The notes beneath the pieces are model-generated. The model was not told the origin of the DNA. It saw nothing but the letters and a program-made list of their open reading frames with translations, and did no database searches. A program made the position numbers and the translations under genes. DNA of 8,148 bases from Naegleria gruberi (taxonomy: Eukaryota). The stretch lies in assembly GCA_000004985.1 (NCBI GenBank), contig GG739091.1. One strand, 5' to 3'. Positions 617 to 7,593 of the stretch are shown here, piece by piece (position 1 is the stretch's first letter; each line of letters begins with the position of its first letter).

Positions 617-935
617 AATATATTTACAGTTAATTTTATTGAATTGAAATTGCTTCAACTCTTGCTTTATTTTCCTTCATCTGAAAGAGAAGCTTTAAGT
701 ATTTCCAAATCAAGCGAACCCTTTGGAAATCTGAAAGATTTAGAGAATTGGAAATGACCATTTTCTGTTTTCTTTTCAGCACTAATTGTAATCAAATCAC
801 CAAGTGAATTTTCCTTAATCTTTACCTCAATATCTTTCTTTTCAAACACATCTCTTGGAATGTTATTAATATCAAGTGAGAGCTCATCCATCTTGATTAA
901 TAGTTCTAATCACAAATGGAAACGGACTTTTCGTC
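617..935 (-). pseudogene. Truncated and frameshifted copy of the 3' half (alpha-crystallin-domain region plus 3' flank) of the sHSP gene at 4413-5321.
   Basis: Nucleotides 617-935 align to 4404-4765 with near-identity in the core (about 705-872 against 4533-4700). The six-frame ORF at 667-891 encodes DELSLDINNIPRDVFEKKDIEVKIKENSLGDLITISAEKKTENGHFQFSKSFRFPKGSLDL, a virtual copy of residues 208-267 of the full gene. Relative to the full gene there is a 5-bp deletion near 888 that shifts frame and a deletion of about 40 bp near 672-680 that removes the C-terminal strand and brings in an early stop. The N-terminal ~185 codons are absent. Confidence 0.7.
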
Positions 936-1298: not shown

Positions 1299-1853
1299 GT
1301 GGTCGGCATTTCTTTGTGTTGCGCCACACTACTTGCAGCCTGTTCCTTCTTCATTGCTTCAATAGTTGTCAATTCAACTGCAGATAAATTACAGGAAGAA
1401 TTCTTCGACATTGTCAATGTTAAGATTACAGCCAAAATTGTCAATGTTTTCAATAATTGTAAAACCTATAGAAGAGAGACAGAATGTTATCCAATTGTTC
1501 GAATGGTTGATTTCTATCCATTCCAAATAGAAAATGTTACAAACCCAAACAGCAATAACACAGTTACGAGAGCAACAACCATGGCCACATCCAATCTTTC
1601 AAAACTAAAAGTGGATGAGATTATTTCTCTCTACATTGAAGTGAATACAACACCATCCACAAGTTCTCAAATTACATGGAAGAAGGTAATGTATGAAAAA
1701 CCTGGAAATCCAAAATATGATGAATATCAATACTACAAGGCCGTTTTTAGCCCACTTCTTTTTATCATGCTGGCTTTAATTTGTCTTACTTTTATTTTCT
1801 TGTTTCTTCTTGTTGGTCTTATGTTTGCAAGCAGACCCGTTGGTCTTTTTTGA
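1299..1853 (+). CDS. Hypothetical membrane or surface glycoprotein. It has an N-terminal hydrophobic signal-like segment, multiple N-x-S/T sequons and a C-terminal ~27-aa hydrophobic anchor. The start codon is unresolved: there is no in-frame ATG before 1504.
   Basis: The 184-codon frame is open from 1242, but the first in-frame ATG is at 1504 (MVDFYPFQ...); the track's start at 1299 is GTG. The N-terminus (ISLCCATLLAACSFFIASIVV) and C-terminus (SPLLFIMLALICLTFIFLFLLVGLMFA) are hydrophobic. Sequons include NST, NVT, NNT and NTT. A possible upstream mini-exon is ATG 1163-1182 with GT at 1183 and AG at 1275-1276, which would join in frame. This is speculative. Confidence 0.4.
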   Translation: MVGISLCCATLLAACSFFIASIVVNSTADKLQEEFFDIVNVKITAKIVNVFNNCKTYRRETECYPIVRMVDFYPFQIENVTNPNSNNTVTRATTMATSNLSKLKVDEIISLYIEVNTTPSTSSQITWKKVMYEKPGNPKYDEYQYYKAVFSPLLFIMLALICLTFIFLFLLVGLMFASRPVGLF

Positions 1854-1866
1854 TGAATTAAAGTCT

Positions 1867-2669
1867 GATTACAATAAAGGTGATTCATTATGCATAATTT
1901 GTTTACCGACAAGTCTTATCCTATAATCTAGATAATCCGAGTCCTATTTCATTAATTATTCCTTCTATTTCTTCTGAAATAAATTTGACAATTCCTTTGT
2001 TCAATGTTTAGATGAACTTTAACCGCCAACAATTTAACAATATTTTAATTTAAAAAAAGTCATTGTTTCATGTTCGATCCAGCTGAAGAGCTACGAAAAA
2101 TCATCCAACGATGATAAGACTGAACCAAAGGCTAAAAAAAGGAAACTCCATGATGTAATTAATATAACCATGAATTTTTAGAACAAATGAAAGAATAATT
2201 GGGATGCACTATTGGTGAGATAATCAACTATTCCAAAAATATTAATTCTACAAGGGAATAATTTAATGACCTTTTAATAGAACTTATTTTGCATATGAAA
2301 GACCCGTCGATTAAGACTAGATGGTCAGTCGAAGAATGTATTACACGCTTAAAATCCCAATACAAAACAGAGCTAAAGACAAGGGTTGATCAAAAGGAAA
2401 AGTATAGGGATAGGGTGGATAAATTTAAAAAAACAAATCTATTGTTGATAAAGCACTATTTCAATAAACTTGACAGAAACAGAACATTCTATGATTTCAC
2501 CATCATCCAATGGTCCAAAAGTTTACTGTCTTTCCGTATAAAGGGACAATTTGGTTACAGCAGTTGGCAAATATTGTTAAAAGGATATCAATGAACAAGA
2601 TTGAAAGCAAGTGTTTCTACTAAGGTAGTTTCAGAAATTGTGGAAATTTACGAAACCGTTGAACCAATT
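1867..2669 (+). repeat. Copy A of a duplicated ~600-800 bp segment, truncated by the scaffold gap at 2670.
   Basis: Nucleotides 1867-2444 align to 3775-4337 and 2635-2669 to 4338-4367, with about a dozen substitutions and several small indels (a 16-bp block at 1900-1915 and a 12-bp block near 2112-2123 are present only in A). A carries an extra ~190 bp (2445-2634) that B lacks. Confidence 0.85.
2295..2594 (+). CDS. Small hypothetical basic, coiled-coil-like ORF (99 aa) carried inside repeat copy A.
   Basis: ATG at 2295, preceded by an in-frame TTG at 2289. The product reads MKDPSIKTRWSVEECITRLKSQYKTELKTRVDQKEKYRDRVDKFKK.... I recognise no family. Its B-copy counterpart is truncated. Confidence 0.3.
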   Translation: MKDPSIKTRWSVEECITRLKSQYKTELKTRVDQKEKYRDRVDKFKKTNLLLIKHYFNKLDRNRTFYDFTIIQWSKSLLSFRIKGQFGYSSWQILLKGYQ

Positions 2670-3178: not shown

Positions 3179-3194
3179 CTTTTCTACTCCTACC

Positions 3195-3283
3195 TTATGA
3201 TTATTTCTTATTCCGAAGTGAACAAAATTGGTCAATTAACAATTAAGGAATTATTAAAGTTCCGTAAGTTTTTAAATTAATTG
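3195..3283 (+). promoter_or_regulatory. Conserved 88-bp upstream element, copy 1 (candidate cis-regulatory module).
   Basis: ttatgattatttcttattccgaagtgaacaaaattggtcaattaacaattaaggaattattaaagttccgtaagtttttaaattaattg is about 97% identical to 5429-5517, while the surrounding sequence carries multiple indels. Confidence 0.4.
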
Positions 3284-3401: not shown

Positions 3402-3623
3402 CACCTATTATTCCATGCCGGAAGATTATGTATTATTATGTATCAAATGATTATTATTTAATACAAATTGTTTGCTTCATTATGATTAAACATTAAACTA
3501 GGTTTTATTAATAATAAATACTGTTAATTTATTCAACAAATAGTAATATATATAAATAAACGTTAATATTTCAATAAACGTAAATAAACTTAAAAAGACG
3601 TTACTATTTGTAATTATTTGATA

Positions 3624-3678
3624 TAAATAAACGTAAATAAATGTAAATAAACGTAAATAAATGTAAATAAATGTAAAG
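3624..3678. repeat. 10-bp minisatellite (taaataaa[c/t]g) x5, with dispersed half-copies at 3555-3584.
   Basis: Five head-to-tail units (taaataaacg, taaataaatg, taaataaacg, taaataaatg, taaataaatg) followed by taaag. Copies of aaataaacgt recur at 3555-3564 and 3575-3584. Confidence 0.85.
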
Positions 3679-3724
3679 TCATGAAAATAGTTTATTTTTC
3701 TTCTGCAAAAAGCTTTTTCAATTC

Positions 3725-3774
3725 NNNNNNNNNNNNNNNNNNNNNNNNNNNNNNNNNNNNNNNNNNNNNNNNNN
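3725..3774. other. Scaffold gap (50 N) directly abutting the start of repeat copy B.
   Basis: A run of N. Confidence 0.95.
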
Positions 3775-4367
3775 GATCACAATAAAGGTGATTCATTATG
3801 CATAATTACTTATCCTATAATCTAGATAATCCGAGTGTCCTATTTCATTAATTATTCCTTCTATTTCTTCTGAAATAAATTTGACAATTCCGTTGTTCAA
3901 TGTTTAGATGAACTTTAACCGCCAACAATTTAACAATATTTTAACTTAAAAAAAGTCATTGTTTCATGTTCGATCCAGCTGAAGAGCTATGAAAAATCAT
4001 CGACTGAACCAAAGGCTAAAAAAAGGAAACTCCATGATGTAATTAATAACCATGAATTTTTAGAACAAATGAAAGAATAATTGGGATGCACTATTGATGA
4101 GATAATCAACTATTCCAAAAATATTAATTCTACAAGGGAAATAATTTAATGACCTTTTAATAGAACTTATTTTGCATATGAAAAACCCGTCGATTAAGAC
4201 TAGATGGTCAGTCGAAGAATGTATTACACGCTTAAAATCCCAATACAAAACAGAGCTAAAGACAAGTGTTGATCAAAAGGAAAAGTACAGGGATATGGTG
4301 GATAAATTTAAAAAAACAAAAATCTGTTGAAAAATTGTGGAAATTTATGAAACCGTTGAACCAATTG
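3775..4367 (+). repeat. Copy B of the duplicated segment, immediately downstream of the 50-N gap and immediately upstream (on the plus strand) of the sHSP 3' end.
   Basis: Direct alignment with 1867-2669. The junction of the ~190-bp deletion relative to A shows 1-2 bp of microhomology (atctgttga|aaaattgtgg). Confidence 0.85.
4178..4330 (+). pseudogene. Truncated paralog (50 codons) of the 2295-2594 ORF in repeat copy B.
   Basis: The first 47 residues match A apart from D3N, R31S and R40M. The ~190-bp deletion then brings a TGA in frame at 4328-4330. Confidence 0.3.
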
Positions 4368-4412: not shown

Positions 4413-5321
4413 TTATTCAATTGAAATTTCTTTAACTCTTTCTTTAATTTCTGGTTCATCAATTCTTGGAATTTTCACACTCAAAGTTCCTTCATCTGAA
4501 AGAGTTGCTTTAACTTTATCCAAATCAAGCGAACCCTTTGGAAATCTGAAAGATTTAGAGAATTGGAAATGACCATTTTCAGTTTTCTTTTCAGCACTAA
4601 TTGTAATCAAATCACCAAGTGAATTTTCCTTAATCTTTACCTCAATATCTTTCTTTTCAAACACATCTCTTGGAATATTATTAATATCTAGTGAGAGCTC
4701 ATTCTTTCCATCTTGATTAATTGTTCTAATCACAGATGAAATTGGACCTCTACGTCTCAATGGCTTATCAGTAGATGTTTCACTCATTGAAGAACTTTCA
4801 CTTGATGATGAAGATGAAGAGCTAATACTCTTTTGAGCATTATTATTCATAGAATTGAAAGAATTGGTATAATCTTCCCACCATTGATGATCATCAAAGA
4901 GGGAAGGCAACATGTTTGATCTTCTCATCATGTTATTCATTCTTCTTCTCATGGAATTGAAAGATTCATCAAAGTTAGAAAAAGGTGATGATTGAAACCA
5001 TTGATTATCAAACCAATCATTCTGATATCCTTGGTTCAATCCTTTCATCAACTTTTTCCAAATATTCTTCTTTGATTTCTTCCTTGATAACTTTTTAGAT
5101 TTTTCTGTTTTAATATTTAATTGAGGATTTGATGAGGAAGAGTATTTACCAGATTGATCATGATCTGGTAATGGTGTTGTTGATTGTCCCTCCTTCTCAA
5201 CACGTACCTCTTCCTCTGCTGTTATAAGGGAAATATCTAAACAATAAACAATGAAGAGTACTGCAAGTAGACTTGAAATGATTACTGTTGTTTTGAATTG
5301 TTGTTGATTTATCTTCATCAT
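4413..5321 (-). CDS. Small heat-shock protein (Hsp20/alpha-crystallin domain) with an N-terminal hydrophobic signal-anchor or signal peptide, a basic patch, a W/F/D/N-rich segment and a poly-Ser tract.
   Basis: Uninterrupted 302-aa ORF running from ATG to stop. The C-terminal ~90 residues (nt ~4464-4739) read GKNELSLDINNIPRDVFEKKDIEVKIKENSLGDLITISAEKKTENGHFQFSKSFRFPKGSLDLDKVKATLSDEGTLSVKIPRI. This matches the alpha-crystallin-domain beta-sandwich pattern, including the C-terminal V-K-A-x-L-x-D-G-x-L-x-[IV]-x-[IV]-P-[KR] stretch. Residues 11-33 (TTVIISSLLAVLFIVYCLDISLI) form a hydrophobic helix after a basic n-region. Residues 162-180 are a poly-Ser run. Residues 100-150 carry a W/F/D-rich region of the kind seen in sHSP N-terminal arms (WDPF-like). 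Confidence 0.8.
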   Translation of the reverse strand: MMKINQQQFKTTVIISSLLAVLFIVYCLDISLITAEEEVRVEKEGQSTTPLPDHDQSGKYSSSSNPQLNIKTEKSKKLSRKKSKKNIWKKLMKGLNQGYQNDWFDNQWFQSSPFSNFDESFNSMRRRMNNMMRRSNMLPSLFDDHQWWEDYTNSFNSMNNNAQKSISSSSSSSSESSSMSETSTDKPLRRRGPISSVIRTINQDGKNELSLDINNIPRDVFEKKDIEVKIKENSLGDLITISAEKKTENGHFQFSKSFRFPKGSLDLDKVKATLSDEGTLSVKIPRIDEPEIKERVKEISIE

Positions 5322-5428
5322 TATGATTTTCTTTTTGAGAATTGATGTTCTATGAAGCAGTTGATGATCAATTTATTGTACTTCGGAATAAAACACGTAT
5401 TATTGTTGTCTATTTTTAATACTTAACA

Positions 5429-5517
5429 TTATGATGTTTTCTTATTCCGAAGTGAACAAAATTGGTCAATTAACAATTAAGGAATTAATAAAGTTCCGTA
5501 AGTTTTTAAATTAATTG
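5429..5517 (+). promoter_or_regulatory. Conserved 88-bp upstream element, copy 2, lying 108-196 bp upstream of the sHSP ATG (minus-strand gene).
   Basis: Same sequence as 3195-3283. It sits in the 5' flank of the sHSP CDS. The sequence directly abutting the ATG is aaaatcataATG. Confidence 0.4.
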
Positions 5518-5725
5518 AATTAATAACATACCAATTGTAATTAATTCATTATTTATTTTGGTTCCCCAATTACCTCGTACAGAAGTATTATGATTGTGAT
5601 AGATCTATTGGAGTGTAGATAAATAAGGACTGTGAAACCCATAAGAGTGTATTAACACTAACATTTTTTTGTCAAATACACAAATTGTAGAGATTAATAT
5701 AGCATGATAAGAACCCCTCGAGTTG

Positions 5726-6179
5726 ATGCCTGCCTTTGGCAAATGGGAGGTAATTACTCAGGAAATTGCAACACAAGCTACAGAGAATTTCAAGGATGAT
5801 CCTGACGTTCTTCTTAATGTCATTCGAACCGATATTGCTCAACAAGTTGTCTCAAGAAATGGTCTTTTATTGCAATATTTCTCACCACAAATCAGAGCAA
5901 ACGATGTTGTGAAAATGGCCATTCAACAGAATCCGTCCTCTCTTCAAAAAAGAGTTTAGTCCAGAACGAGGAAATAGTAACAAAAGCAATTCAATATGAT
6001 GGATCAGTGCTACAATTCGCACAAACACAATTTAAATCAAGACAATTAGTATTGGAAGCTTGAGTAATGATGTTAGAGCATACAGATTAATAGATTCTTC
6101 GTTGAGAAGCGATGAAGATATTCTAAAGGTTTACTCCAACTCTACCAGTTGTTGGACTATTACATTCGATGAAAAGTAA
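5726..6179 (+). CDS. DUF4116-type repeat protein gene, interrupted by two apparent -1 frameshifts (at about 5946-5951 and 6058-6063). Read through, it encodes about 150 aa.
   Basis: Three consecutive frames each encode units of the DUF4116 repeat pattern (..D.evvl.Av.qnG.aLqyas.elr.D.e..): DPDVLLNVIRTDIAQQVVSRNGLLLQYFSPQIRANDVVKMAIQQNPSSLQ, then NEEIVTKAIQYDGSVLQFAQTQFKSRQLVLEA, then NDVRAYRLIDSSLRSDEDILKVYSNSTSCWTITFDEK. Both frame breaks coincide with homopolymers: A6 at 5946-5951 and the T-run in gcttga at 6058-6063. Adding one base at each gives the continuous peptide ...SSLQKKSLVQNEEIV...LVLEALSNDVRAY.... Confidence 0.6.
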
Positions 6180-6261: not shown

Positions 6262-7593
6262 TTAATCATAACTTGGTTCTGGCATGTTTTCATGACATAG
6301 GTCTCTATATCTTTCCACATCCCTTTCCCACTGATAAATATTTTCATGATCTTTTGATGACATGCATAACATCCTTGATACATTATACATTTGACCGTAG
6401 TATTCTGCTGCGTCATCAAGCCACTCATATTTATCAAACTTTTCCTTAATTGCTGATTGATATTGATGAACTAACTCTATCCACACATTATTATCTTTCA
6501 AGAGTTGTGGAATAATGTCCAAAGATGATAAAACAAGCAAAACACCTTGACTGTCAATATTTTCAAGATAAGGGCGTAAATTTTGAAGCATAATATTACC
6601 AATTAAATGCTTTTGGGTATCTTCAAGCTCAAATGAGGAGAGAAGAGCAAACGTAATCCTAAATCTCCATTCATTATCCAGTGGTTCGAATTTGAGAATT
6701 AAAGTTCCAATTTCCTCAACACTTATGAATTCTGCTTCCAAACCAACCACAATTCTCATAATCTCATTTCTATTGTCTGTTTGCGTAATTACGATTAATT
6801 CTGATTCTGATTCTACAATTTTTTTAATGGTAATATTAAAGCCACCTACAACTAATCTCCATTTGCATAACAGTTCAAATGATTTGGAGGTACTATTTGG
6901 GAGTAAATGAAGAATCTGCTTATCCAGCTCATCAATCAAATTGCTTCTATAAACTGGTGTTGAGATTGAATAAACCATCCGCTCCATAATTCCCAAATAT
7001 TCTGTAAAATTAGGGTATCTCAAGTAATAACCCAATACTTGTACTATCATTTTATCTAGAACATATTGTTGGGAAATATCAAAGAATGTGGAAGAGATAA
7101 GGTAGTTTAAACCCTTTTCAGCGTAAGAACTCGTAATGCTACTCAATCCGCTTCTATGGAATAGGTTGAAAAATAGCAAAAGATAAACGCCACCAATATT
7201 TGTCAACTTGGTACAATCATCCTTGACGGTATAAAAAGAATCAACAATAGACTGTAAGTGCTTATGAGTTGGATTGTTTTCAAAATAACCAACCATTTCA
7301 AAGCATGCTTTCAAAAATAACAATTCCTCTTTGTATTTGCTTGTCTTGATATATTTCTCAAACTCTGTTTTAGCTTTGCCCAACCACTTCTCTTCTGGGT
7401 TTCTGTTGTGGTACACGCAAACAAGCAAATAGGCAATAATGTAGCCAATAGAACCATCAGAAAATTGTTGTGTGGAGAGATGATCGATGTTGTTCAACAC
7501 TGTTGGGATCAATTGGTTGGTGAGTGGTTTTTCTGCAGCCGTTTTTATGTTTTGCATAACTTGGTGCATTTGTGAGGGTTGGATACTAAACAT
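6262..7593 (-). CDS. Hypothetical protein, 443 aa. Predicted largely alpha-helical, with no family I can recognise.
   Basis: It is the longest uninterrupted ORF in the window (1332 nt including stop), with non-repetitive composition and balanced amino-acid usage. No TM or signal segment is evident. Its 3' end lies 82 bp from the 3' end of the DUF4116 gene, so the two are convergent. Confidence 0.75.
   Translation of the reverse strand: MFSIQPSQMHQVMQNIKTAAEKPLTNQLIPTVLNNIDHLSTQQFSDGSIGYIIAYLLVCVYHNRNPEEKWLGKAKTEFEKYIKTSKYKEELLFLKACFEMVGYFENNPTHKHLQSIVDSFYTVKDDCTKLTNIGGVYLLLFFNLFHRSGLSSITSSYAEKGLNYLISSTFFDISQQYVLDKMIVQVLGYYLRYPNFTEYLGIMERMVYSISTPVYRSNLIDELDKQILHLLPNSTSKSFELLCKWRLVVGGFNITIKKIVESESELIVITQTDNRNEIMRIVVGLEAEFISVEEIGTLILKFEPLDNEWRFRITFALLSSFELEDTQKHLIGNIMLQNLRPYLENIDSQGVLLVLSSLDIIPQLLKDNNVWIELVHQYQSAIKEKFDKYEWLDDAAEYYGQMYNVSRMLCMSSKDHENIYQWERDVERYRDLCHENMPEPSYD

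What the first reader, a model, noticed from the sequence alone, without database searches (positions are those of the whole stretch)
4413..5321. Small heat-shock protein with a signal-anchor, basic patch and long low-complexity linker
The C-terminal ~90 aa form a convincing alpha-crystallin domain, but the architecture is atypical. A 10-aa basic n-region plus a ~23-aa hydrophobic helix sits at the extreme N-terminus, which suggests a signal peptide or type-II anchor. It is followed by an acidic stretch, a lysine-rich patch (KSKKLSRKKSKKNIWKKLMK), a W/F/D/N-rich segment with RRR motifs and a 12-Ser run before the alpha-crystallin domain. Most sHSPs are cytosolic with short N-terminal arms. A membrane-tethered or secreted sHSP with a disordered linker would be a lineage-specific innovation, possibly surface, ER or secretory-pathway associated. 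There is no KDEL-type C-terminus.
Basis: partly seen in the sequence, partly recalled or inferred. Interest (0 to 1): 0.55.

Follow-up and report, generated by a model that had tools for sequence, protein, structure and literature searches.

The report
Signal-peptide small heat-shock protein, Naegleria
This Naegleria gruberi gene encodes a small heat-shock (alpha-crystallin) protein with a conserved secretion signal, one of a small family found only in Naegleria-like amoebae, so it probably acts as an energy-independent chaperone inside the secretory pathway or outside the cell rather than in the cytosol.

Summary
Window 4413-5321(-) is an intact 302-aa ORF, N. gruberi NAEGRDRAFT_76695 ("predicted protein"); the window is that gene's whole 8148-bp scaffold. 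The C-terminus is a genuine alpha-crystallin domain: Pfam HSP20 35 bits (E 1.5e-8), an AlphaFold beta-sandwich with pLDDT 84-92, and Foldseek hits that are all sHSP cores.

The N-terminal hydrophobic segment is not a gene-model artefact. All 14 relatives found carry it: N. gruberi paralog, N. fowleri, N. lovaniensis, two Willaertia magna proteins and environmental sequences. Each has a (-3,-1) cleavage-type site. None of 16 outgroup ACD proteins has such a segment.

An exhaustive HMMER scan of 1.8 billion proteins gave only 23 hits, so the family is small and divergent. The best-conserved parts are an [IV]-x-[IV] motif at the predicted mature N-terminus (EEEITVEKE) and another at the extreme C-terminus (I-x-I/V-E-COOH).

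The "12-Ser run" is 8 consecutive serines, 12 of 14 residues. There is no KDEL-like end, no upstream HSE, and no literature on these proteins.

Best reading: a cleaved-signal secretory-pathway sHSP holdase, acquired independently of plant ER sHSPs. Localisation and activity remain untested. Interest is moderate.

The parts
4413..5321 (-). Complete single-exon CDS (302 codons plus TAA stop at 4413-4415) of N. gruberi NAEGRDRAFT_76695, a signal-peptide-bearing small heat-shock protein
   Evidence: ORF listing and sequence. 100% identical to XP_002668391.1.
5217..5321 (-). Predicted signal peptide, residues 1-35. The n-region is 1-10 (5292-5321). The hydrophobic core plus c-region is 11-35 (5217-5291). 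The predicted cleavage is LITA|EEE. C27|L28 is an alternative cleavage site.
   Evidence: Kyte-Doolittle 15-residue maximum of 2.78. AF2 helix at 6-33. The aligned homologs all show A, G or S at -1 and V, I, A or S at -3, directly before the conserved acidic motif. No dedicated predictor was run.
5187..5216 (-). Conserved motif at the predicted mature N-terminus, residues 36-45 (EEEVRVEKEG; family consensus EEEITVEKEG). It contains an [IV]-x-[VI] triplet flanked by acidic residues.
   Evidence: Mean BLOSUM62 column score 2.19, higher than the ACD mean of 1.83. Alignments.
5103..5186 (-). Variable, predicted-disordered linker rich in P, T, S and Q, residues 46-73
   Evidence: pLDDT below 50 for residues 34-83. 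Column score 0.31.
5043..5102 (-). Lysine-rich patch, residues 74-93 (KSKKLSRKKSKKNIWKKLMK). Its N-terminal half is specific to this protein. Its C-terminal half is the conserved basic helix (consensus RxLMKxLRKYQFGNDWF).
   Evidence: 11 basic residues of 20. AF2 helix at 84-98. Orthologs lack the KSKKLSRKKSKK part. The mature pI is 9.0 here against 5.2-6.5 in Naegleria relatives.
4842..5042 (-). Aromatic/acidic N-terminal region, residues 94-160. It carries the conserved SFxxMRRRMNNMxRR (119-134) and LPSLFDDHQWWEDY (138-151) blocks and is the putative client-binding and oligomerisation arm.
   Evidence: 12 F/W/Y in residues 100-160. Column scores 1.71 and 2.18. AF2 helices at 117-137 and 147-164. 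The function is inferred from what is known of sHSP N-terminal regions.
4761..4841 (-). Ser-rich low-complexity linker, residues 161-187. It has 8 consecutive Ser at 167-174 and 12 Ser within 165-178. It is not conserved in orthologs.
   Evidence: counts. (absent from homologs). pLDDT below 50 for residues 163-185.
4464..4739 (-). Alpha-crystallin domain, residues 195-286. It has seven predicted strands, with a very short beta5-beta6+7 turn (TENG) and a family-specific 5-residue insertion in the beta3-beta4 loop (NIPRDVFEKKD).
   Evidence: Pfam PF00011 at E 1.5e-8. AF2 pLDDT 84-92. Foldseek PDB hits to SIP-1, Hsp27, alphaB-crystallin, HSPB7 and SpHsp16, with target-normalised TM up to 0.80. 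Loop comparison.
4416..4463 (-). C-terminal extension, residues 287-302, ending in the I-S-I-E-COOH motif. The IxI triplet is residues 299-301 (4419-4427). There is no KDEL/HDEL-type end.
   Evidence: Column score 2.36, the highest of all segments. It aligns with the C-terminal IxI of SpHsp16 and other sHSPs.
620..927 (-). Degenerate second copy of the last third of the gene (codons ~192-302), a pseudogene fragment. It is 93% identical, with a 5-nt and a 38-nt deletion that break the reading frame. Similarity stops upstream of 927.
   Evidence: The 74-aa remnant ORF 667-891 gives only a sub-threshold HSP20 hit (16.5 bits).
5426..5517 (.). 92-bp block lying 105-196 nt upstream of the ATG. It is repeated at 3192-3283 (96% identical). 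It could be a promoter-proximal element or part of the local segmental repeat. Its function is unknown.
   Evidence: It contains no canonical HSE.

Best explanation
The gene encodes a secretory-pathway small heat-shock protein.

Proposed mechanism, step by step:
1. The N-terminal 35 residues act as a cleavable ER signal peptide. This is inferred from sequence and conservation.
2. Cleavage at about A35|E36 releases a ~31-kDa mature protein into the ER lumen.
3. Because there is no KDEL/HDEL-type retrieval signal, the protein probably travels on to a post-ER compartment or the cell exterior. Candidates are the medium, the phagolysosomal system or the cyst wall. The destination is not resolved.
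4. The mature protein has the standard tripartite sHSP layout: a long, partly disordered, aromatic/acidic N-terminal arm; a compact alpha-crystallin beta-sandwich lacking the swapped beta6 loop; and a short C-terminal extension.
5. The two most conserved elements are [IV]-x-[IV] motifs flanked by acidic residues, one at the mature N-terminus and one at the extreme C-terminus.
6. By analogy with alphaB-crystallin and other sHSPs, these motifs would dock into the beta4/beta8 grooves of neighbouring ACD dimers to build or regulate oligomers. The aromatic arm would hold unfolding client proteins without ATP. Such a holdase would suit compartments and surroundings where ATP-driven chaperones are unavailable.

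Status of each claim:
- Shown here: the ORF, the ACD (by sequence and predicted fold), conservation of the signal-like N-terminus and the terminal motifs, and the restriction of the family to Naegleria/Willaertia-type sequences.
- Inferred: translocation, cleavage, destination, oligomerisation through the terminal motifs, and holdase activity.
For: - ORF and identity.
- ACD: Pfam HSP20 at 35.1 bits, E 1.5e-8. Family profile against PDB: SpHsp16 at E 1.5e-8, plus Hsp26, wheat Hsp16.9 and Hsp21. AF2 beta-sandwich at 195-286 with pLDDT 84-92. Foldseek PDB: 45 hits at E<=1e-3, all listed sHSP ACDs.
- Signal peptide: all 14 family members have an N-terminal hydrophobic core (KD15 2.78-3.47), while all 16 non-family ACD proteins are at or below 1.6. 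All 13 aligned members have A, G or S at -1 and V, I, A or S at -3; in most the site lies directly before the conserved acidic motif, but in P0014 a ~28-residue Q/S/T-rich insert separates them and P0008 lacks the motif. The uncharged span is 17-21 residues, typical of an h-region plus c-region.
- Start codon: in-frame stop 17 codons upstream with no ATG in between. Orthologs in N. lovaniensis and N. fowleri are intronless and syntenic.
- Terminal motifs: column scores are 2.19 (N-terminal) and 2.36 (C-terminal), against 1.83 for the ACD and ~0.3 for the linkers. The C-terminal IxI aligns with the IxI of SpHsp16 and other sHSPs.
- Compact ACD: a 4-residue turn between strands 237-246 and 251-260. 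SpHsp16, ScHsp26 and bacterial-type sHSPs carry 10-15 extra residues at that point.
- No retention signal: every member ends in -I/V-x-I/V-[E/D/N].
- Precedent for signal-peptide sHSPs in the ER of plants: PMC7069362 and PMC9075518.
Against: - No signal-peptide or topology predictor, transcript data or proteomic data could be used. Localisation is entirely inferred.
- In this particular protein the hydrophobic region is long (25 residues) and interrupted by D29. The exact cleavage site is therefore uncertain, and a signal anchor is not excluded.
- The mature proteins are almost Cys-free and have few or no N-glycosylation sequons, none in this protein. That is unusual for secreted proteins, though normal for sHSPs.
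- No HSE-like element lies within 600 bp upstream here or in N. fowleri, so heat inducibility is unsupported.
- The AF2 model does not dock either terminal motif with confidence: pLDDT is below 50 for 34-83 and 293-302.
- The conserved N-terminal motif could instead be a sorting or propeptide signal.
- No literature exists on these proteins.
Confidence: 0.62

Rival explanations
1. Type-II signal-anchored membrane protein. The N-terminal hydrophobic helix is not cleaved and tethers the protein to the ER, endomembranes or plasma membrane. The linker and alpha-crystallin domain then face the lumen or the outside.
For: In this protein the hydrophobic segment spans residues 11-35 and AF2 models one continuous helix at 6-33. 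The h-regions in the family (15-19 residues) are at the long end for signal peptides. A long disordered linker after the helix would suit a tethered domain.
Against: - Every member has a polar c-region with a canonical (-3,-1) site.
- The uncharged span is 17-21 residues including that c-region, which is short for a stable anchor.
- D29 interrupts the segment here.
- In most members the most conserved non-ACD motif begins exactly at the predicted cleavage site, as expected if a free mature N-terminus matters.
- Positive charges on the N-terminal side are few (two Lys in this protein).
Confidence: 0.15
2. Secreted or lumenal alpha-crystallin-domain protein with a non-chaperone role. It could be a structural or matrix component such as cyst-wall or surface-coat material. 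In that case the conserved EEEITVEKE motif would be a sorting or propeptide signal rather than an oligomerisation motif.
For: - The family is very divergent from canonical sHSPs: only 23 hits at E<=1e-3 in 1.84 billion representatives.
- The long N-terminal region has family-specific conserved blocks found nowhere else.
- There is no HSE upstream.
- Low-complexity Ser and Lys tracts are typical of extracellular or matrix proteins.
Against: The hallmarks used by sHSP chaperones are retained and are the best-conserved parts. These are the ACD fold, the aromatic N-terminal arm and the C-terminal IxI that aligns with the IxI of known chaperone sHSPs. There are no Cys for cross-linking and few glycosylation sequons.
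Confidence: 0.13
3. Ordinary cytosolic sHSP. On this reading the annotated N-terminus is a gene-model artefact (true start at M92, M124 or M131), or the hydrophobic segment is a mitochondrial or other organellar targeting element.
For: Internal Met residues exist at 92, 124, 128, 131 and 132. No transcript evidence was available. The scaffold is small, gapped and repeat-rich.
Against: - Residues 1-91 are conserved at the protein level in 13 homologs from several species, including the signal-like segment and the EEEITVEKE motif. Non-coding sequence would not be conserved like this at 45% overall identity.
- The ORF is open from M1, with an upstream in-frame stop.
- The n-region is short, lacks Arg and is not amphipathic. 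It is followed by a strongly hydrophobic core, unlike a matrix presequence.
- Naegleria has separate ~20-kDa Hsp20 proteins for the cytosolic role (PMC4082629).
Confidence: 0.05

Closest known systems
Plant ER-class small heat-shock proteins (e.g. wheat TaHSP23.9, rice OsHSP23.2; Arabidopsis HSP22.0 from my own knowledge)
   Same: An alpha-crystallin-domain sHSP preceded by an N-terminal signal peptide that takes it into the endomembrane system (PMC7069362; PMC9075518). This gives the same overall logic of an ATP-independent holdase in the secretory pathway.
   Different: - From my own knowledge, plant ER sHSPs end in a K/HDEL-like retention tetrapeptide and have the long beta6 loop typical of plant, fungal and bacterial sHSPs.
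- The Naegleria family ends in I-x-I/V-E, lacks that loop, and has a ~160-residue N-terminal region with its own conserved blocks.
- No signal-bearing protein outside the family appeared among the hits at E<=1e-3.
- The signal peptide was therefore most likely acquired independently.
Metazoan alpha-crystallin-type sHSPs (human HSPB5/alphaB-crystallin, HSPB1/Hsp27, C. elegans SIP-1)
   Same: These are the best structural matches of the predicted ACD: 4mjh, 4m5t, 8pa0 and 4ydz, with target-normalised TM 0.62-0.80. They share the same compact beta5-beta6+7 connection without a swapped beta6 loop. AlphaB-crystallin also carries IxI-type motifs near both termini: I3-A-I5 and the C-terminal I-P-I, from my own knowledge (compare the title of PDB 9bee).
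   Different: - Metazoan sHSPs have no signal peptide and are cytosolic or nuclear. Their extracellular release is unconventional (PMC4960997 and PMC12081433, listed).
- Sequence identity to the predicted ACD is only 18-25%.
- The N-terminal regions are unrelated.
- The high target-normalised TM scores partly reflect that those PDB entries are trimmed ACD constructs.
Fungal sHSPs: S. pombe Hsp16.0 (3w1z) and S. cerevisiae Hsp26 (7oa6)
   Same: These are the best sequence-profile matches among solved structures, at E 1.5e-8 and 1.3e-6. The alignment runs from beta2 through the C-terminal IxI.
   Different: They are cytosolic, have no signal peptide, and carry 10-15 extra residues in the beta5-beta7 loop, which forms the swapped beta6 strand used for dimerisation.
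Clusterin and other secreted ATP-independent extracellular chaperones
   Same: Functional analogy only: a signal-peptide-secreted holdase acting where ATP is scarce (PMC12527946 and PMC9867986, listed).
   Different: The fold and ancestry are unrelated. There is no alpha-crystallin domain.

Membership tests
Small heat-shock protein / HSP20 (Pfam PF00011) superfamily | Significant match to the alpha-crystallin domain profile, above the curated threshold | tested here: met
   PF00011: 35.1 bits against a cutoff of 20.8, E 1.5e-8, residues 221-301. Family profile against PDB sHSPs: down to E 1.5e-8.
Small heat-shock protein / HSP20 (Pfam PF00011) superfamily | Seven- to eight-stranded beta-sandwich ACD fold | tested here: met
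   AF2 model: strands at 195-286 with pLDDT 84-92. Foldseek PDB probability 1.0 to many ACD structures. This is a predicted structure, not an experimental one.
Small heat-shock protein / HSP20 (Pfam PF00011) superfamily | C-terminal extension carrying an I/V-x-I/V motif | tested here: met
   I299-S-I301-E302. It is conserved in all full-length members and aligns with the IxI of SpHsp16 and other sHSPs.
Small heat-shock protein / HSP20 (Pfam PF00011) superfamily | Oligomer formation and ATP-independent suppression of client aggregation | not testable with these tools
   Requires recombinant protein, SEC-MALS or native MS, and aggregation assays.
Small heat-shock protein / HSP20 (Pfam PF00011) superfamily | Stress (heat) inducibility through heat-shock elements. 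This is typical of the family but not obligatory. | tested here: not met
   No GAAnnTTC or TTCnnGAA dimer within 600 bp upstream in the window or in N. fowleri. No 3-unit HSE with <=1 mismatch upstream of the gene. Expression itself was not tested.
Plant-type ER-resident sHSP class | N-terminal ER signal peptide | tested here: inconclusive
   A tripartite n/h/c organisation with a (-3,-1) site is conserved in all members. No dedicated predictor or experiment was available.
Plant-type ER-resident sHSP class | C-terminal K/HDEL-like ER retrieval signal | tested here: not met
   The protein ends in -EISIE. All members end in [IV]-x-[IV]-[E/D/N].
Plant-type ER-resident sHSP class | Sequence affiliation with plant sHSPs, including the long beta6-containing loop | tested here: not met
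   The loop is reduced to 4 residues. The exhaustive profile search returned no signal-bearing protein outside the family.
Metazoan alpha-crystallin-type sHSPs (HSPB family) | Compact ACD with a fused beta6+7 strand and no swapped loop | tested here: met
Metazoan alpha-crystallin-type sHSPs (HSPB family) | Cytosolic protein without a signal peptide, of metazoan descent | tested here: not met
   A conserved hydrophobic N-terminal signal is present. The organism is a heterolobosean amoeba. Only 18-25% identity.
Type-II signal-anchor membrane proteins | Uncleaved hydrophobic span of about 20 or more residues, without a signal-peptidase site | tested here: inconclusive
   The uncharged spans are 17-21 residues and each ends in a canonical (-3,-1) site, which argues for cleavage. 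The span in this protein is 25 residues with an internal Asp. No topology predictor was run.

The most novel reading that the evidence does not exclude
A heterolobosean-specific, classically secreted small heat-shock protein. On this reading the protein leaves the ER, having no retrieval signal, and works as an extracellular or post-Golgi ATP-independent chaperone in the medium, the phagolysosome or the cyst wall. Its oligomer would be built or gated by twin acidic-flanked [IV]-x-[IV] motifs at both mature termini docking onto a metazoan-like compact ACD. This would be an independent invention of a secretory sHSP outside plants. As far as the searched literature shows, it would also be the first conventionally secreted one.
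Probability: 0.3. Interest if true: 0.6.

Novelty: new variant of a known kind. Interest (0 to 1): 0.4.

Why it matters
sHSPs are regarded as cytosolic or organellar holdases. Entry into the secretory pathway by a signal peptide is documented essentially only for the plant ER class, and animal sHSPs reach the outside only by unconventional routes.

A separate, conserved family in Naegleria and Willaertia would show that eukaryotes have recruited the alpha-crystallin fold to lumenal or extracellular proteostasis more than once. These amoebae include the thermotolerant pathogen N. fowleri. The family combines a signal peptide, no retention signal, a compact ACD and IxI-type motifs at both mature ends.

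It would also give a tractable case for studying how terminal IxI motifs control sHSP assembly. It offers a candidate factor for survival of heat, desiccation or encystment in free-living amoebae. For N. fowleri it is a lineage-restricted, possibly exposed protein.

The finding remains a sequence-based prediction and the protein class is familiar, so the surprise to a specialist is moderate.

Tried and rejected
- **Heat-shock elements:** I scanned for 3-unit HSEs (<=1 mismatch) and 2-unit HSEs upstream of the gene and of the N. lovaniensis, N. fowleri and one environmental ortholog. There was nothing upstream in the window or in N. fowleri. N. lovaniensis showed only background-level hits.
- **Literature:** searches by locus tags and accessions, 'Naegleria + small heat shock protein/Hsp20', the Naegleria secretome, and signal-peptide sHSPs found nothing on these proteins. 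The N. fowleri predicted-secretome paper and its supplement do not mention the protein. The Hsp20 proteins in Naegleria and Willaertia proteomics papers are other proteins; the N. fowleri one is a ~20-kDa protein.
- **Profile-seeded word-index search:** a second search with the 13-sequence alignment added only two bacterial HSP20s.
- **Genomic context of the N. gruberi paralog P0004 and of P0031:** not on record in the contig index. I therefore could not decide which N. gruberi copy is syntenic with the RMI1 / AMP-deaminase locus seen in N. fowleri and N. lovaniensis.
- **Organism behind assembly GCA_037189345.1 (P0014):** could not be identified.
- **A second intact gene copy hidden in the N gap at 2671-2895:** considered, because flanking blocks are duplicated. 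However, the 296 bp after the gap show no similarity to the gene's 5' half, so the idea is unsupported.
- **Weak Pfam hits of the N-terminal region** (PRTRC_E, PHL; E 0.03-0.08, below cutoff): dismissed as low-complexity noise.
- **Mitochondrial targeting:** rejected on the character of the sequence.
Full report
**What the window is.** The 302-aa ORF at 4413-5321(-) is 100% identical to N. gruberi XP_002668391.1 / NAEGRDRAFT_76695 / UniProt D2W5K4, annotated only as 'predicted protein'. Its single recorded contig is 8148 bp long, the same as the window, so the window is that whole small scaffold. The scaffold has ~30% G+C, two N gaps (2671-2895 and 3725-3774) and several internal duplications.

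**Checking the observation.** The ORF starts at ATG 5321. An in-frame stop lies 17 codons upstream with no ATG in between, and the ORF ends in TAA.
- n-region, residues 1-10, with only two Lys
- hydrophobic segment, residues 11-35, interrupted by D29
- acidic EEEVRVEKE, residues 36-44
- Lys patch, residues 74-93, with 11 basic residues of 20
- aromatic/acidic region, residues 100-160, with RRR at 125-127 and a second RRR at 189-191
- Ser-rich tract
- C-terminus -EISIE

One correction: the '12-Ser run' is 8 consecutive serines (167-174), or 12 Ser within 14 residues.

**The alpha-crystallin domain is real.**
- Pfam HSP20 scores 35.1 bits against a cutoff of 20.8, E 1.5e-8, at residues 221-301.
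- A 13-sequence family profile hits solved sHSPs. These are S. pombe Hsp16 (E 1.5e-8), yeast Hsp26, wheat Hsp16.9 and chloroplast Hsp21.
- The AlphaFold2 model built on that alignment gives a beta-sandwich at 195-286 with pLDDT 84-92.
- Foldseek against the PDB returns 45 hits at E<=1e-3, and all those listed are sHSP ACDs.

**Relatives.** The word-index search found four relatives: an N. gruberi paralog (NAEGRDRAFT_53591, 325 aa), N. lovaniensis C9374_004885, N. fowleri FDP41_006955 and one environmental protein. An exhaustive HMMER profile scan of 1.84 billion cluster representatives found only 23 proteins at E<=1e-3.

Fourteen of the proteins found share the full architecture. They include two from Willaertia magna, a genus I know to be classified close to Naegleria. 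They also include several metagenome or assembly sequences, one of them on a 92-kb eukaryotic contig. The rest are ACD-only matches. The family is therefore small, divergent from mainstream sHSPs, and so far confined to Naegleria/Willaertia-type organisms.

The N. lovaniensis and N. fowleri genes are single uninterrupted ORFs. Both sit between an RMI1 gene and an AMP deaminase gene.

**The N-terminus.** All 14 members have an N-terminal hydrophobic core, with a 15-residue Kyte-Doolittle maximum of 2.78-3.47.

In the alignment every member has a short, weakly basic n-region and an uncharged span of 17-21 residues. This span ends in a polar c-region with A, G or S at -1 and V, I, A or S at -3. 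Examples are VKA|xEEE in Naegleria and LITA|EEE here. In most members a conserved acidic motif follows immediately.

This is the classic layout of a cleavable signal peptide. Its persistence at ~20-50% overall identity shows that the region is translated and under selection. That disposes of the 'downstream start' alternative as far as comparative data can. I could not run SignalP or DeepTMHMM. In this particular protein the segment is long and contains an Asp, so an uncleaved signal anchor keeps some probability.

**Architecture of the mature protein.** Conservation was measured per segment as mean BLOSUM62 column score.

| Segment | Score |
|---|---|
| C-terminal [IV]-x-[IV]-E-COOH | 2.36 |
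| Mature N-terminal motif (consensus EEEITVEKEG; EEEVRVEKEG here) | 2.19 |
| LPSLFDDHQWWEDY block | 2.18 |
| ACD | 1.83 |
| SFxxMRRRMNNMxRR block | 1.71 |
| Basic helix | 1.33 |
| Two linkers | ~0.3 |

AF2 predicts disorder for residues 34-83 and 163-185, and helices at 84-98, 117-137 and 147-164.

The KSKKLSRKKSKK half of the Lys patch and the Ser tract occur only in this N. gruberi protein. They make its mature form basic (pI 9.0), whereas the Naegleria relatives are at 5.2-6.5. They are low-complexity decorations of variable linkers, not family features.

Both termini of the predicted mature protein thus carry an acidic-flanked [IV]-x-[IV] triplet. The C-terminal one aligns with the canonical IxI of SpHsp16 and other sHSPs. 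From established knowledge, that motif docks into the beta4/beta8 groove of a neighbouring ACD. AlphaB-crystallin also has an N-terminal IxI (compare PDB 9bee). I infer, but have not shown, that both motifs take part in assembly or self-regulation.

**The ACD type.** The turn between strands 237-246 and 251-260 is only four residues, TENG. SpHsp16, ScHsp26 and bacterial-type HSP20s have 10-15 more residues at that point, which is the swapped beta6 loop they use to dimerise.

Most of the best Foldseek hits are metazoan compact ACDs: Hsp27, alphaB-crystallin, HSPB7 and SIP-1. This partly reflects trimmed PDB constructs. The family also has a 5-residue insertion in the beta3-beta4 loop, NIPRDVFEKKD. 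A metazoan-like antiparallel beta6+7 dimer is therefore the most plausible dimer type, but this is unverified.

**Destination and function.**
- No member ends in a K/HDEL-like signal, so simple ER retention is not indicated. There is also no C-terminal hydrophobic GPI-type signal.
- Mature proteins are almost free of Cys and have few or no N-glycosylation sequons.
- No HSE-like element lies upstream of the gene here or in N. fowleri.
- Nothing in the searchable literature deals with these proteins. The N. fowleri Hsp20 protein in the proteomics paper is a different, ~20-kDa protein; Willaertia HSP20 entries are noted.

The best-supported mechanism is a signal-peptide-directed sHSP that works as an ATP-independent holdase in the lumen of the secretory or endolysosomal system, or outside the cell. 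The final compartment remains open.

**Comparison with known systems.** Plant ER-class sHSPs are the functional precedent, combining a signal peptide with an ACD. The Naegleria family differs from them in three respects:
- it fails the retention-signal test;
- it fails the sequence-affiliation test;
- no signal-bearing outgroup was found.

An independent origin is therefore likely. Metazoan HSPB proteins resemble it in ACD compactness and in having IxI motifs at both ends, but they are cytosolic. I rate it a new variant of a known kind, with moderate interest.

**Surroundings.**
- 620-927(-) is a 93%-identical copy of the last third of the gene. A 5-nt and a 38-nt deletion break its reading frame, making it a pseudogene fragment.
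- Blocks at 1867-2669 match 3775-4366. A 92-bp block upstream of the gene (5426-5517) recurs at 3192-3283.
- The upstream 443-aa ORF (6262-7593, -) has no family. Residues 182-428 are 245/247 identical to a 247-aa predicted protein on a 695-kb N. gruberi scaffold. This small scaffold may therefore be a haplotig, a recent duplicate or a gap filler.
- A DUF4116 fragment lies at 5723-5959(+).

Noticed in passing
window 620-927 (-): A second, degenerate copy of the last ~110 codons of the sHSP gene. It is 93% identical, with a 5-nt and a 38-nt deletion that break the frame, and similarity ends abruptly upstream of 927. It is probably a pseudogene fragment. The remnant ORF 667-891 gives only a sub-threshold HSP20 hit.
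   Followed up: yes
window 1867-2669 vs 3775-4366; N gaps 2671-2895 and 3725-3774: A ~600-bp segment downstream of the gene is duplicated at 92-97% identity. One copy has ~180 bp extra, and it abuts an assembly gap. The scaffold is a patchwork of local segmental repeats. A hidden second gene copy in the gap was considered, but the sequence after the gap does not support it.
   Followed up: partly
window 5426-5517 and 3192-3283: A 92-bp block, 96% identical between the two copies. One copy sits 105-196 nt upstream of the sHSP start codon. It contains an imperfect palindrome (GGAATTATTAAAGTTCC) but no canonical heat-shock element. It could be a promoter element or just part of the repeat.
   Followed up: partly
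window 6262-7593 (-): A 443-aa ORF with no Pfam family. Residues 182-428 are 245/247 identical to a 247-aa 'predicted protein' on a 695-kb N. gruberi scaffold, and no full-length match is in the database. This suggests the 8-kb scaffold is a haplotig, a recent duplication or a piece missing from the larger scaffold, and that the deposited model is truncated.
   Followed up: partly
window 5723-5959 (+): A short ORF matching DUF4116 (E 1.3e-8), apparently a fragment. A DUF4116 gene also lies upstream of the environmental family member on L002 (3232-4650). This is probably a coincidence.
   Followed up: no
window 3530-3689: An AT-rich tandem array with a ~10-bp period (ATAAACGTAA / ATAAATGTAA units), just before the second N gap.
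   Followed up: no
N. fowleri proteins P0005 (FDP41_006955, 272 aa) vs P0028 (CAG4718659.1, 304 aa); loci L006/L007: The reference N. fowleri model diverges after ...IIIRGEKEK into an unrelated tail and loses the end of the ACD and the C-terminal IxI. The 304-aa version from another assembly is intact. This looks like a frameshift or assembly error in the FDP41 model.
   Followed up: partly
window 1299-1853 (+): A 184-aa ORF with hydrophobic segments at both ends and several N-x-S/T sites, and no Pfam match. It may be a small membrane or secreted protein gene, or it may be spurious.
   Followed up: no
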